Assembly (NCBI GenBank): GCA_038869515.1
Contig: JAWCQZ010000003.1
Coordinates: forward strand, 126,884-190,883
DNA length: 64,000 bases
Reading direction: 5' to 3'
Source of the DNA: Halobacteria archaeon
Lineage (GTDB): Archaea > Halobacteriota > Syntropharchaeia > JACQPP01
Under the pieces are notes generated by a model. That model saw only the letters and a program-made list of their open reading frames with translations, searched no databases and was not told the origin of the DNA. The position numbers and the translations under genes are program-made. Positions within the stretch are counted from its first letter, which is position 1; each line of letters begins with the position of its first letter. This document shows positions 4,520 through 5,359 of the stretch, piece after piece.

Positions 4520-5359
4520 ATGGCATCCCCCCGGCGCCCGGTCCGAGTCGCGTTCCTGGAGCTGGGGGTCATCGGCGCCTCGCAGTTGCTCGAGAACCTG
4601 CTGGACGAGCGCGCCGACCGGCCGGACCTGGAGGTCCGGGCGTGGGGCTCGGGGACCAAGATGCAGGAGCCCCAGGCGGCCATCGCCGATGAGGTCGTCA
4701 CGTGGTCGCCGGACCTCGCCGTCCTCTCCTGCCCCAACGCGGGGCTCCCGGGGCCCGCCCGGGCGTGGAAGGCGCTGGCGTTGGCCGGTCCGACGCTCGT
4801 GGTCTCCGACGGCCCGGCCCGGAAGGCCGCCCCGGAGATGGAGAAGGCGGGGGCGGGCTACATCCTCCTCACTGGCGACGTGATGCTCGGCGCGCGCCGG
4901 GAGTTCCTCGACCCGACCGAGATGGCGCTCTTCAACGCGGACATCCTGAAGGTCCTGGCGGTCTGCGGGGCCCTCCGGCTCCTCCACGAGGAGGTGGACC
5001 GGGTCGTCGCGGCCCTGGCCGGCGGCAAGAGGCCCGCCCTTCCGCGGATGGTCGCCGACGGCCCGACGGTGGTGGCGCGAGCGGGCTTCTCCAACCCCTA
5101 CGCGGCCGCCAAGGCGCTGGCGGCCCACGGGACCGCGGAGGCGGCGGGCGCCCTCGCCCACGAGGCGTGCTTCAAGATGGAGCGGCCGGAGGATTACCTC
5201 CCCGCCTGCGCCGCGGTCCACGAGATGGCGAGGGCCGCGGCGCGGCTCGCGGACGAGGCGCGGGAAGCGGAGAAGGGGGCGGACCGGGTCCTCCGGACCC
5301 CCCACGGAAAGGACGGAAACATGCTGCGCAAGTCGAAATTGATGGAAAAGCCCGGCTAG
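4520..5359 (+). CDS. mtd: F420-dependent methylenetetrahydromethanopterin dehydrogenase
   Basis: 280 aa from the ATG at 4520 (track start 4493 is a TTG extension). Motifs LLDERADRPDLEV, GDVMLGARREFLDPTEMALFNADILKVLA, FSNPYAAAKA, ASAHEM and VLRTPHGKDG match the Mtd family as I recall it. Confidence 0.85.
   Translation: MASPRRPVRVAFLELGVIGASQLLENLLDERADRPDLEVRAWGSGTKMQEPQAAIADEVVTWSPDLAVLSCPNAGLPGPARAWKALALAGPTLVVSDGPARKAAPEMEKAGAGYILLTGDVMLGARREFLDPTEMALFNADILKVLAVCGALRLLHEEVDRVVAALAGGKRPALPRMVADGPTVVARAGFSNPYAAAKALAAHGTAEAAGALAHEACFKMERPEDYLPACAAVHEMARAAARLADEAREAEKGADRVLRTPHGKDGNMLRKSKLMEKPG

What the first reader, a model, noticed from the sequence alone, without database searches (positions are those of the whole stretch)
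4520..5359. F420 / tetrahydromethanopterin gene set scattered across the window in a high-G+C genome
mtd (4520-5359), cofE (24980-25795), cofC (27618-28289), mptA (61862-62839) and a PTPS/QueD-like gene (60872-61198) indicate F420- and H4MPT-dependent C1 metabolism. Together with MC1 chromatin protein and a DUF835 protein this points to a Methanomicrobia-like euryarchaeon, yet G+C this high is unusual for cultivated methanogens I know. The lineage may be under-described.
Basis: inference. Interest (0 to 1): 0.5.

Follow-up and report, generated by a model that had tools for sequence, protein, structure and literature searches.

The report
Leftover methanogen C1 genes, aerobic archaeon
The F420 and tetrahydromethanopterin genes are real, but the genome is not a methanogen's: it belongs to Candidatus 'Aerovita', a high-G+C, oxygen-respiring relative of ANME-1 described in 2025, and it keeps only the middle of the old C1 pathway, 6.5 kb from a bacterial-type copper monooxygenase operon.

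Summary
Observation confirmed. mtd, cofE, cofC and mptA sit at the stated coordinates and pass curated family cut-offs. The PTPS-like gene is real but looks more like QueD (archaeosine) than an H4MPT gene.

Interpretation partly right. The genome (1.98 Mb, 69.2% G+C, 91% complete) is neither a haloarchaeon (median protein pI about 9) nor a methanogen. McrA, MtrH, Ftr, CdhC and FwdC were not found.

GTDB kinship puts it in the same family as MAG JACQPP01 and the same class as ANME-1. That is the order Ca. 'Aerarchaeales', genus Ca. 'Aerovita' (Leu et al., Nat Commun 2025). So the lineage was under-described but now has a description.

As that paper reports for the genus, this genome has a haem-copper oxidase and a bacterial-type hmoCAB operon. 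The operon lies 2.0-4.8 kb left of the window, and mtd starts 6.5 kb after it.

The retained genes are Fae-Hps, Mer, F420-Mtd, Mch, SHMT, Phi, FdhA, and the F420 and H4MPT biosynthesis genes. I read them as a housekeeping module for C1 supply and formaldehyde removal.

One addition: the paper's tables track bacterial mtdB (K10714) and score mtd absent in the aerobic family. The F420-dependent Mtd is present in all three family genomes searched and is under purifying selection. This weakens one of the paper's arguments against C1 substrates.

The parts
4520..5359 (+). mtd, F420-dependent methylene-H4MPT dehydrogenase, 279 aa
   Evidence: Pfam 336 bits; NCBIfam equivalog 328 bits against a cut-off of 297. 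Full-length alignment to PDB 1QV9. 91 invariant columns shared with 12 homologues. dN/dS 0.19 against the congener.
5356..5736 (-). FpoO-like gene, convergent with mtd; the two 3' ends overlap by 4 bp
   Evidence: Pfam FpoO 43.6 bits. Same position in G001.
24980..25795 (+). cofE, F420-0:gamma-glutamyl ligase
   Evidence: TIGR01916 281 bits against 181; NF009809 282 bits against 274.
27618..28289 (-). cofC, 2-phospho-L-lactate guanylyltransferase
   Evidence: TIGR03552 156 bits against 105. Called as 223 aa in the near-identical assembly.
61862..62839 (-). mptA, GTP cyclohydrolase MptA, first step of H4MPT pterin synthesis
   Evidence: TIGR00294 equivalog 411 bits against 220.
60872..61198 (-). 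PTPS/QueD-family gene, 108 aa; probably QueD (archaeosine precursor) rather than an H4MPT gene
   Evidence: Pfam PTPS 78 bits. Best NCBIfam match is QueD, 73.5 bits, below its cut-off. C-x3-HGH motif in the translation; reading that motif as QueD-like is from memory.
61243..61572 (+). MC1 chromatin protein, a lineage marker of Halobacteriota
   Evidence: Pfam MC1 103 bits.
1484..4390 (-). DUF835 sensor kinase-like gene, P-II and ammonium transporter; these lie between hmoCAB (outside the window) and mtd
   Evidence: Precomputed Pfam on the identical contig. Same order in G001.
43067..48546 (+). nuoA-B-C-D, a rhomboid gene, nuoH-I: part of the truncated complex I described for this family
   Evidence: Pfam Oxidored_q4, q6, Complex1_30kDa, Complex1_49kDa, Rhomboid, NADHdh, Fer4. 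Paper section read.

Best explanation
The window comes from an uncultured archaeon of Ca. 'Aerarchaeales' (GTDB order JACQPP01, class Syntropharchaeia), genus Ca. 'Aerovita'. This is an oxygen-respiring, Mcr-less relative of ANME-1.

The F420/H4MPT genes are the vertically inherited middle part of the ancestral methanogenesis / Wood-Ljungdahl methyl branch. They are kept after both ends of the pathway were lost.

Shown here:
- Present: Fae-Hps, Mer, F420-Mtd, Mch, SHMT, Phi, FdhA, cofactor biosynthesis for F420 (CofC, CofE, CofH) and for H4MPT (MptA, RFAP synthase).
- Not found: Ftr, FwdC, MtrH, McrA, CdhC.

Inferred:
- H4MPT is the cell's C1 carrier.
- Methylene-H4MPT is made from serine by SHMT. 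It is also made from formaldehyde by Fae. That formaldehyde is released by Hps/Phi during pentose synthesis, and may also come from oxidised substrates.
- Mer reduces methylene-H4MPT to methyl-H4MPT for methionine and methylations.
- Mtd and Mch oxidise it to the methenyl and formyl levels, passing electrons to F420.
- The module therefore supplies C1 units and removes formaldehyde. It is not an energy pathway.
For: Gene identities.

Genome contents:
- Present: Mer 353 bits against a cut-off of 348.7; Mch, intact; RFAP synthase; CofH; Fae-Hps fusion of 407 aa; Phi; SHMT; FdhA; COX1 525 bits; hmoCAB.
- Not found: McrA, Ftr, CdhC, MtrH; FwdC below cut-off.
- Family pattern over three genomes: Mtd 3/3, Mch 3/3, Ftr 0/3, McrA 0/3. 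Ftr is in 37 of 38 class-mates.

Lineage:
- The GTDB kinship codes give same family as G002 and same class as f4.
- G002's Mtd contig has the same length, 51,828 bp, as record JACQPP010000090.1.
- f4 loci are 100% identical to named Methanophagales records.
- The paper places JACQPP01 in Syntropharchaeia and describes the same traits.

Vertical inheritance and function:
- The three family Mtds form a clade with 99% support, on the Halobacteriota/ANME-1 side of the tree.
- dN/dS is 0.19-0.34.

Not a chimeric bin:
- 16S rRNA, RFAP synthase, mtd, MC1 and hmoCAB all lie on contig C3.
- A second assembly is 99.97-99.99% identical over this region.
- The congener G001 has the same gene order.
Against: - No enzyme was found that uses N5-formyl-H4MPT (no Ftr, no Fwd/Fhc). 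The purpose of the Mtd-Mch branch is therefore not explained by known reactions.
- Mer and Fae-Hps were found only in the two hmoCAB-bearing genomes and not in G002. G002 is only 73% complete, so this could be chance, but it could also point to a link with the monooxygenase.
- Mer passes its equivalog cut-off by only 4 bits and belongs to a large family of paralogues.
- No expression or biochemical data exist.
- The genus assignment rests on anonymous GTDB codes plus the paper's taxonomy, not on ANI/AAI to the named MAGs.
Confidence: 0.7

Rival explanations
1. Fae, F420-Mtd, Mch and FdhA form the formaldehyde-oxidation arm, and Hps-Phi the assimilation arm, downstream of the copper monooxygenase. 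The organism would then be an aerobic archaeal oxidiser of methane or another C1-yielding substrate. This would be an archaeal counterpart of the bacterial H4MPT-linked pathway.
For: - hmoCAB ends 6.5 kb upstream of mtd, with the same gene order in G001.
- Fae-Hps and Mer were found only in the two hmoCAB genomes.
- Phi and FdhA are present.
- The published argument against methane cites the absence of bacterial mtdB, folD and mdh. The paper's tables track K10714, not the F420-dependent Mtd that is present here.
Against: - Ftr and Fwd/Fhc were not found in any of the three genomes, so formyl-H4MPT has no known route to formate.
- No PQQ methanol dehydrogenase was found.
- The paper places the enzyme in the hydrocarbon (C2-C4) monooxygenase clade.
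- mtd and hmoCAB are separated by oppositely oriented genes, so they are not one operon.
- Mtd and Mch also occur in G002, which has no monooxygenase.
- Fae-Hps, Phi and SHMT are ordinary housekeeping genes in H4MPT-using archaea (my own knowledge).
Confidence: 0.12
2. One reading: a Methanomicrobia-like methanogen (or Mcr-based methane or alkane oxidiser) with unusually high G+C.
For: - Mtd, Mer, Mch, and the F420 and H4MPT biosynthesis genes, MC1 and DUF835 are typical of such organisms.
- Most class-mates carry Mcr or Acr.
Against: - McrA, MtrH, Ftr and CdhC were not found at 91% completeness.
- McrA and Ftr were also not found in the two other family genomes.
- A haem-copper oxidase and an O2-dependent monooxygenase are present.
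- The paper reaches the same conclusion for six MAGs.
Confidence: 0.03
3. The genes are decaying relics with no present function.
For: - Both ends of the pathway are gone.
- The Mtd clade sits on a long stem, 0.58 substitutions per site, and scores about 90 bits lower against Pfam than class-mates do.
Against: - The reading frames are intact in three genomes.
- dN/dS is 0.19-0.34.
- 91 invariant columns are kept.
- Costly biosynthesis of both cofactors is retained.
- The compositional shift to 69% G+C can explain much of the divergence (composition warning).
Confidence: 0.05
4. The window is from a haloarchaeon or another well-known high-G+C group, or the bin is a chimera of archaeal and bacterial contigs.
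For: - 69% G+C, MC1, HTH_10 regulators and Oap genes recall haloarchaea.
- One relative is titled 'uncultured Halobacteria archaeon'.
- The monooxygenase is of bacterial type.
Against: - Median pI is about 9, and only 2% of proteins are below pI 5.
- The Haloferax control lacks Mtd.
- GTDB class-mates are ANME-1.
- Contamination is 0.14%.
- hmoCAB, the archaeal 16S and the archaeal markers share one 258-kb contig, which is reproduced in a second assembly and in a congener.
Confidence: 0.01

Closest known systems
Ca. 'Aerovita' (Ca. 'Aerarchaeaceae', Ca. 'Aerarchaeales' = GTDB o__JACQPP01, class Syntropharchaeia); Leu, Woodcroft, McIlroy and Tyson, Nat Commun 2025 (PMC12533140)
   Same: - Same GTDB family as the JACQPP01 MAG, and a different genus from it.
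- No Mcr or CODH/ACS.
- hmoCAB of bacterial type; HmoA is at most 48% identical to named bacterial sequences.
- Haem-copper oxidase, truncated complex I, mch and mer present.
- About 2 Mb genome.
   Different: - This genome is its own species representative in GTDB and is not among the six MAGs of the paper. Its accessions do not occur in the stored supplements.
- Its HmoC/A/B are only 62/58/57% identical to those of the congener G001, although flanking genes are 82-96% identical.
- It carries an F420-dependent Mtd and a Fae-Hps fusion. The paper's tables do not record them in the stored text.
F420-dependent methylene-H4MPT dehydrogenase (Mtd) of methanogens, ANME-1 and Archaeoglobi; solved structure 1QV9 from Methanopyrus kandleri
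   Same: - Full-length homology and conserved invariant residues.
- F420 and H4MPT biosynthesis genes are present in the same genome.
   Different: - Only about 50% identical to class-mates, which are more than 85% identical to one another. It sits on a long stem and has a skewed composition.
- It works in a genome without Ftr, Fwd, Mtr or Mcr, so it cannot be a step of methanogenesis or reverse methanogenesis.
H4MPT-linked formaldehyde oxidation of aerobic methylotrophic bacteria (Fae, MtdA/MtdB, Mch, Fhc)
   Same: An aerobe with a copper membrane monooxygenase, Fae, a methylene-H4MPT dehydrogenase, Mch and formate dehydrogenase.
   Different: - The dehydrogenase is the archaeal F420 type, not the NAD(P)-dependent MtdA/B.
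- No Fhc/Ftr homologue and no PQQ methanol dehydrogenase were found.
- Fae is fused to Hps, as in methanogens.
Non-methanogenic descendants of methanogens that keep parts of the H4MPT pathway (Archaeoglobus; haloarchaeal Mch and RFAP synthase)
   Same: A partial methyl-branch gene set is kept after loss of Mcr. The Haloferax control has Mch and RFAP synthase but no Mtd or Ftr.
   Different: - Archaeoglobi keep the complete branch with Ftr, Fwd and Cdh.
- Haloarchaea lack Mtd.
- The set seen here (Fae-Hps, Mer, Mtd, Mch, without Ftr or Fwd) lies between the two.

Membership tests
F420-dependent methylene-H4MPT dehydrogenase (PF01993 / NF002162) | Full-length match above the curated equivalog cut-off | tested here: met
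   328 bits against 297, covering model positions 3-276 of 277. Pfam 336 bits.
F420-dependent methylene-H4MPT dehydrogenase (PF01993 / NF002162) | Sequence alignable over its whole length to the solved Mtd structure, with family-invariant residues kept | tested here: met
   1QV9, residues 9-278 against 5-282. 91 invariant columns in a 13-sequence alignment. No three-dimensional model was built.
F420-dependent methylene-H4MPT dehydrogenase (PF01993 / NF002162) | Both cofactors, F420 and H4MPT, can be made by the cell | tested here: met
   CofC and CofE, CofH, MptA, RFAP synthase. CofD, CofG and the later H4MPT steps were not searched.
F420-dependent methylene-H4MPT dehydrogenase (PF01993 / NF002162) | Catalytic activity with methylene-H4MPT and F420 | not testable with these tools
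   Needs an enzyme assay.
Methanogen / Mcr-based methane or alkane metaboliser | Methyl- or alkyl-coenzyme M reductase (McrA) | tested here: not met
   No match in G000, G001 or G002; found in 26 of 41 genomes overall, all of them class-mates.
Methanogen / Mcr-based methane or alkane metaboliser | Complete H4MPT methyl branch (Fwd, Ftr, Mch, Mtd, Mer, Mtr) | tested here: not met
   Ftr 0/3. MtrH not found. FwdC only sub-threshold at 22 bits. Mch, Mtd and Mer are present.
Methanogen / Mcr-based methane or alkane metaboliser | CODH/ACS (needed for acetoclastic or autotrophic types) | tested here: not met
   CdhC not found.
Halobacteria (haloarchaea) | Acidic, salt-in proteome | tested here: not met
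   Median pI 9.0-9.1; 2% of ORFs below pI 5.
Halobacteria (haloarchaea) | Taxonomic placement in class Halobacteria | tested here: not met
   GTDB class-mates are ANME-1/Methanophagales.
Ca. 'Aerarchaeaceae' / Ca. 'Aerovita' (PMC12533140) | Placement in GTDB order JACQPP01, in the same family as the JACQPP01 MAG (CG-2 lineage) but a different genus | tested here: met
   G002 is 'same family, other genus'. Its Mtd contig has the same length, 51,828 bp, as JACQPP010000090.1. The paper defines two genera in this family.
Ca. 'Aerarchaeaceae' / Ca. 'Aerovita' (PMC12533140) | hmoCAB copper monooxygenase of bacterial type (the genus trait) | tested here: met
   AmoC 155, AMO 212 and Monooxygenase_B 254 bits, at G000:C3:122069-124859. 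Found only in G000 and G001 among 41 class genomes. HmoA falls in one clade with G001's.
Ca. 'Aerarchaeaceae' / Ca. 'Aerovita' (PMC12533140) | Haem-copper oxygen reductase present; no Mcr/Acr and no CODH/ACS | tested here: met
   COX1 525 bits.
Ca. 'Aerarchaeaceae' / Ca. 'Aerovita' (PMC12533140) | AAI/ANI to the named MAGs CM-1 and CG-1 within genus range | not tested
   The named MAGs could not be identified among the anonymous genome handles. Whether G001 (record SRP093762_co1_34) is CM-1 is not established.

The most novel reading that the evidence does not exclude
Ca. 'Aerovita' uses its copper monooxygenase on methane or another substrate that yields C1 products. It then handles the resulting formaldehyde with an all-archaeal route: Fae to F420-Mtd to Mch, an unknown formyl-H4MPT-releasing step, then FdhA, with Hps-Phi for assimilation. 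That would make it the first aerobic archaeal methanotroph or methylotroph. One published argument against methane, the absence of mtdB, overlooks the F420-dependent Mtd that is present 6.5 kb from hmoCAB.
Probability: 0.1. Interest if true: 0.9.

Novelty: new member of a known kind. Interest (0 to 1): 0.4.

Why it matters
The window lies beside the copper monooxygenase operon of one of the very few archaea thought to oxidise hydrocarbons with oxygen.

The lineage itself was published in 2025, so the main point is no longer new. Three things remain useful.

1. This is a further species of the genus, with a 258-kb contig that links the 16S rRNA gene, hmoCAB and the C1 genes.
2. The aerobic family keeps an F420-dependent Mtd, and the two Aerovita genomes searched also keep Fae-Hps. 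The published tables, which track the bacterial KO, score mtd as absent. This changes how the 'loss of methanogenesis' is drawn and reopens the substrate question.
3. The set Mer-Mtd-Mch without Ftr or Fwd leaves N5-formyl-H4MPT with no known consumer. That is a concrete biochemical gap to fill.

Tried and rejected
- Haloarchaeon hypothesis, my first guess from 70% G+C, MC1 and DUF835. Rejected by the basic proteome and the GTDB kinship.
- Mch pseudogene. The 'one TAG inside' is the gene's own stop codon.
- 16S placement. BLAST of the 16S against 150 phylum genomes gave 73-82% identity everywhere and no resolution of class. G001 and G002 were not in that sample.
- Origin of the sample. The near-identical assembly GCA_038869275.1 (JAWCRK01) has an accession prefix close to those of hot-spring MAGs from Tengchong. 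The Tengchong paper (PMC11094006) mentions neither Syntropharchaeia nor JACQPP01 in its main text. The Aerarchaeales paper's stored supplements hold none of the accessions. The hot-spring origin is therefore only an inference.
- AurF-like di-iron gene directly upstream of hmoC as a possible fourth subunit. Not supported: not found with this protein query in G001, which has hmoCAB, but present in G002, which does not.
- mtd-hmoCAB operon. Rejected, because oppositely oriented genes lie between them.
- Horizontal origin of mtd. No sign of it; the family clade sits with the other Halobacteriota, though that join has weak support of 72%.
- YN00 dN/dS failed numerically, so only NG86 values are given.
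Full report
**Observation.** The window is uniformly G+C-rich, 65-72% in 4-kb windows.

| Gene | Coordinates | Evidence |
|---|---|---|
| mtd | 4520-5359 (+) | Pfam MTD 336 bits; NCBIfam equivalog 328 bits against 297 |
| cofE | 24980-25795 | TIGR01916 281 bits against 181 |
| cofC | 27618-28289 | TIGR03552 156 bits against 105 |
| mptA | 61862-62839 | TIGR00294 411 bits against 220 |
| PTPS/QueD-like | 60872-61198 | Pfam PTPS 78 bits; QueD 73.5 bits, below 89.25 |

- mtd aligns over its whole length with the solved Methanopyrus kandleri enzyme 1QV9.
- It keeps 91 columns that are invariant among 13 homologues.
- The PTPS-like protein's best curated match is QueD, below cut-off. 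Its translation carries a C-x3-HGH motif, which from memory marks QueD-type enzymes of archaeosine/queuosine precursor synthesis. I would not count it as an H4MPT gene.
- MC1, DUF835, IMPDH, HflX-type GTPase, KARI, S15 and uL15 are also confirmed.

**Which organism.** The genome has 1,984,845 bp in 14 contigs and 69.2% G+C. Completeness is 90.9% and contamination 0.14%.
- My first guess, a haloarchaeon, fails. The predicted proteome is basic, with median pI 9.0-9.1 and 2% of ORFs below pI 5. This holds for the 588 ORFs of 300 aa or more.
- The GTDB kinship codes returned by the genome search show one other species in the genus (G001) and one more in the family (G002). No further family in the order was returned, and the class-mates are in families f2-f6.
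- Two f4 loci are 100% identical to records titled Methanophagales, that is ANME-1. The class is therefore Syntropharchaeia.
- The named relatives found through Mtd are 'uncultured Halobacteria archaeon SRP093762_co1_34' (84% identity, G001) and 'Methanobacteriota archaeon NC_groundwater_1310_Ag_S-0.2um_68_50', record JACQPP010000090.1 (65%, G002).
- The 16S gene on the same contig is at most about 81-82% identical to any of 150 sampled genomes of the phylum. This fits a deep lineage but does not resolve the class.

- It names GTDB order JACQPP01 as Ca. 'Aerarchaeales', from six MAGs.
- Family Ca. 'Aerarchaeaceae' has two genera. Ca. 'Aerarchaeum' is CG-2, a better version of GCA_016207465.1. 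Ca. 'Aerovita' comprises CM-1, CG-1 and MW-1.
- The family lacks Mcr/Acr, CODH/ACS and 'most of the methanogenesis pathway'. It has a haem-copper oxidase and a truncated complex I. Ca. 'Aerovita' alone has a bacterial-type copper monooxygenase, hmoCAB.
- Our genome shares a family but not a genus with the JACQPP01 MAG. It shares a genus with another hmoCAB-bearing MAG. I therefore assign it to Ca. 'Aerovita'.
- It is not one of the six published MAGs as far as the stored text shows.

**The same traits in this genome.**
- A look-up of the Mtd protein returned a near-identical public contig, GCA_038869275.1 JAWCRK010000003.1, and short contigs from SRR27730035-37. Just upstream it showed AmoC, AMO and Monooxygenase_B genes.
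- I fetched the own-genome region left of the window. It is 99.97% identical to that contig.
- It encodes hmoC, hmoA and hmoB at G000:C3:122069-124859, with Pfam scores of 155, 212 and 254 bits. That is 2.0-4.8 kb before the window's first base. mtd starts 6,544 bp after hmoB ends.
- AMO is found only in G000 and G001 among 41 class genomes.
- HmoA's nearest relatives are 93, 81 and 62% identical sequences on unnamed short contigs. After those come bacterial sequences at 48% or less, from Alicyclobacillaceae, Egibacteraceae, Carbonactinospora and others.
- COX1 is present at 525 bits. nuoABCD-(rhomboid)-nuoHI lie in the window.

**What is left of the C1 pathway.**

| Status | Genes |
|---|---|
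| Not found in G000 | McrA, Ftr, CdhC, MtrH |
| Not found in G000 | FwdC above cut-off |
| Not found in G000 | PQQ methanol dehydrogenase |
| Found in G000 | Mer (353 bits against 348.7) |
| Found in G000 | Mch, intact; the TAG is its own stop |
| Found in G000 | Mtd |
| Found in G000 | Fae-Hps fusion, 407 aa |
| Found in G000 | Phi |
| Found in G000 | SHMT |
| Found in G000 | FdhA (787 bits against 666) |
| Found in G000 | RFAP synthase |
| Found in G000 | CofH |

Across the three family genomes:
- Mtd, Mch, CofH, Phi and FdhA are in 3/3.
- Ftr, McrA and PQQ methanol dehydrogenase are in 0/3.
- Mer, Fae-Hps, SHMT, hmoA and a full-length COX1 are in G000 and G001 only. G002 is 73% complete.
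- By contrast, Ftr is in 37 of 38 class-mates and Mtd in 33 of 38.

**Is Mtd inherited and functional?**
- In a tree of 91 Mtd sequences the three family members form a clade (99% SH-aLRT) on a long stem of 0.58 substitutions per site.
- That clade joins the Halobacteriota side that holds ANME-1, with weak support (72%). Composition differs significantly from the rest of the alignment. Nothing suggests horizontal acquisition.
- dN/dS is 0.19 against G001 (dS 0.53) and 0.32-0.34 against G002. The gene is under purifying selection.

**How it most likely works.**
- Established for H4MPT-using archaea (my own knowledge of these pathways): SHMT and Fae load C1 units onto H4MPT at the methylene level. 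Fae-Hps with Phi makes pentoses by the reverse ribulose-monophosphate route and captures the formaldehyde released. Mer yields methyl-H4MPT. Mtd and Mch yield the methenyl and N5-formyl levels, with F420 as the electron carrier.
- Inferred here: with both pathway ends missing, these steps serve C1 supply for biosynthesis and formaldehyde removal in an aerobe.
- The weak point is that no consumer of N5-formyl-H4MPT is encoded, so the Mtd-Mch branch lacks a known outlet.

**What this adds to the paper.**
- In the stored supplementary tables the 'mtd' row carries KO K10714, the bacterial NAD(P)-dependent MtdB. It is scored 0 for the columns that lack cdh and ftr (the aerobic family) and for most other Syntropharchaeia genera. 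mch and mer are scored 1 in most of those aerobic-family columns (three of four).
- K00319 (F420-dependent Mtd) and K13812 (fae-hps) do not occur in the stored text. The files were cut when stored, so this is not proof of omission.
- My family search finds PF01993 in 36 of 41 class genomes, including all three Aerarchaeaceae.
- The paper argues that methane is an unlikely substrate because mdh, folD and mtdB are absent. The mtdB part of that argument is weakened by the F420-dependent Mtd, Fae and Mch shown here. The missing methanol dehydrogenase and missing Ftr/Fhc still stand.
- I give the C1-oxidation reading about 10%.

**Side observations.**
- Gene order PhoU-PHO4-HTH_10-hmoCAB-OapC ... 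DUF835-PII-Amt-mtd-FpoO-SepF-nitroreductase is shared by G000 and G001.
- Most flanking proteins are 82-96% identical (HTH_10, DUF835, SepF, nitroreductase, PhoU_div) and Mtd 84%, but HmoC, HmoA and HmoB only 62, 58 and 57%.
- In a tree of 119 HmoA sequences the archaeal sequences form one clade (100%) with two deep halves, 1.18 substitutions per site apart. So the monooxygenase has either evolved much faster than its neighbours or been exchanged between diverged lineages at a fixed locus.
- A di-iron AurF-like gene abuts hmoC in G000 only, and its distribution does not follow hmoCAB.

**Verdict.** The finding is explained by a lineage that is now published, so it rates as a new member of a known kind. 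The remaining value is the unreported F420-Mtd/Fae-Hps retention and the open question of what the truncated pathway feeds.

Noticed in passing
L105:14070-16860 (G000:C3:122069-124859; 2.0-4.8 kb left of window base 1): hmoC-hmoA-hmoB, a bacterial-type copper membrane monooxygenase operon (258, 250 and 409 aa). It ends 6.5 kb upstream of mtd. This is the most remarkable feature of the locus, and it lies just outside the window.
   Followed up: yes
L105:14070-16860 compared with L117:4489-7187: HmoC/A/B are only 62/58/57% identical between the two congeneric genomes. Most flanking genes at the same locus are 82-96% identical. The HmoA tree shows one archaeal clade with two deep halves. This points to fast evolution, or to exchange of the cassette at a fixed site.
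   Followed up: partly
L105:12875-14062 (G000:C3:120874-122058): A 395-aa ferritin-like di-iron protein (weak AurF / RNR-small / aldehyde decarbonylase matches) ends 8 bp before hmoC on the same strand. It has a paralogue on C11 and homologues in G002. It was not found with this protein query in G001, so it is not a fixed partner of hmoCAB.
   Followed up: partly
PMC12533140 supplementary file 3, parts 24-25: The paper's 'mtd' row uses K10714 (bacterial MtdB) and scores most Syntropharchaeia, including the aerobic family, as lacking mtd. PF01993 (F420-dependent Mtd) is found in 36 of 41 class genomes searched here.
   Followed up: yes
whole genome (G000): The predicted proteome is strongly basic (median pI about 9; Arg 8.5%, Lys 3.7%) and G+C is 69%. 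Ten short loci from class-mates have 42-58% G+C. The paper does not discuss this compositional jump.
   Followed up: partly
window:5356-5736 (-): An FpoO-like gene is convergent with mtd, and their 3' ends overlap by 4 bp. It is conserved in G001. The paper reports that the family lacks FpoF.
   Followed up: no
window:45938-46678 (+): A rhomboid protease gene sits between nuoD and nuoH inside the complex I gene row.
   Followed up: no
window:6687-8177 (-): A 496-aa protein with two nitroreductase-family stretches lies two genes from mtd and is 89% identical in G001. Function unknown; a flavin- or F420-related role was not examined.
   Followed up: no
window:10871-12016: Small toxin-antitoxin genes: HicA and HicB on the minus strand, and a ParE-family toxin with an upstream small ORF on the plus strand.
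   Followed up: no
window:21691-22881 (-): A tRNA-splicing endonuclease of 396 aa with its N-terminal and catalytic domains duplicated in one polypeptide.
   Followed up: no
G000 and G001 compared with G002: Fae-Hps, Mer and SHMT were found only in the two hmoCAB-bearing genomes and not in G002. G002 is 73% complete, so this may be chance. It is worth checking on better genomes.
   Followed up: partly
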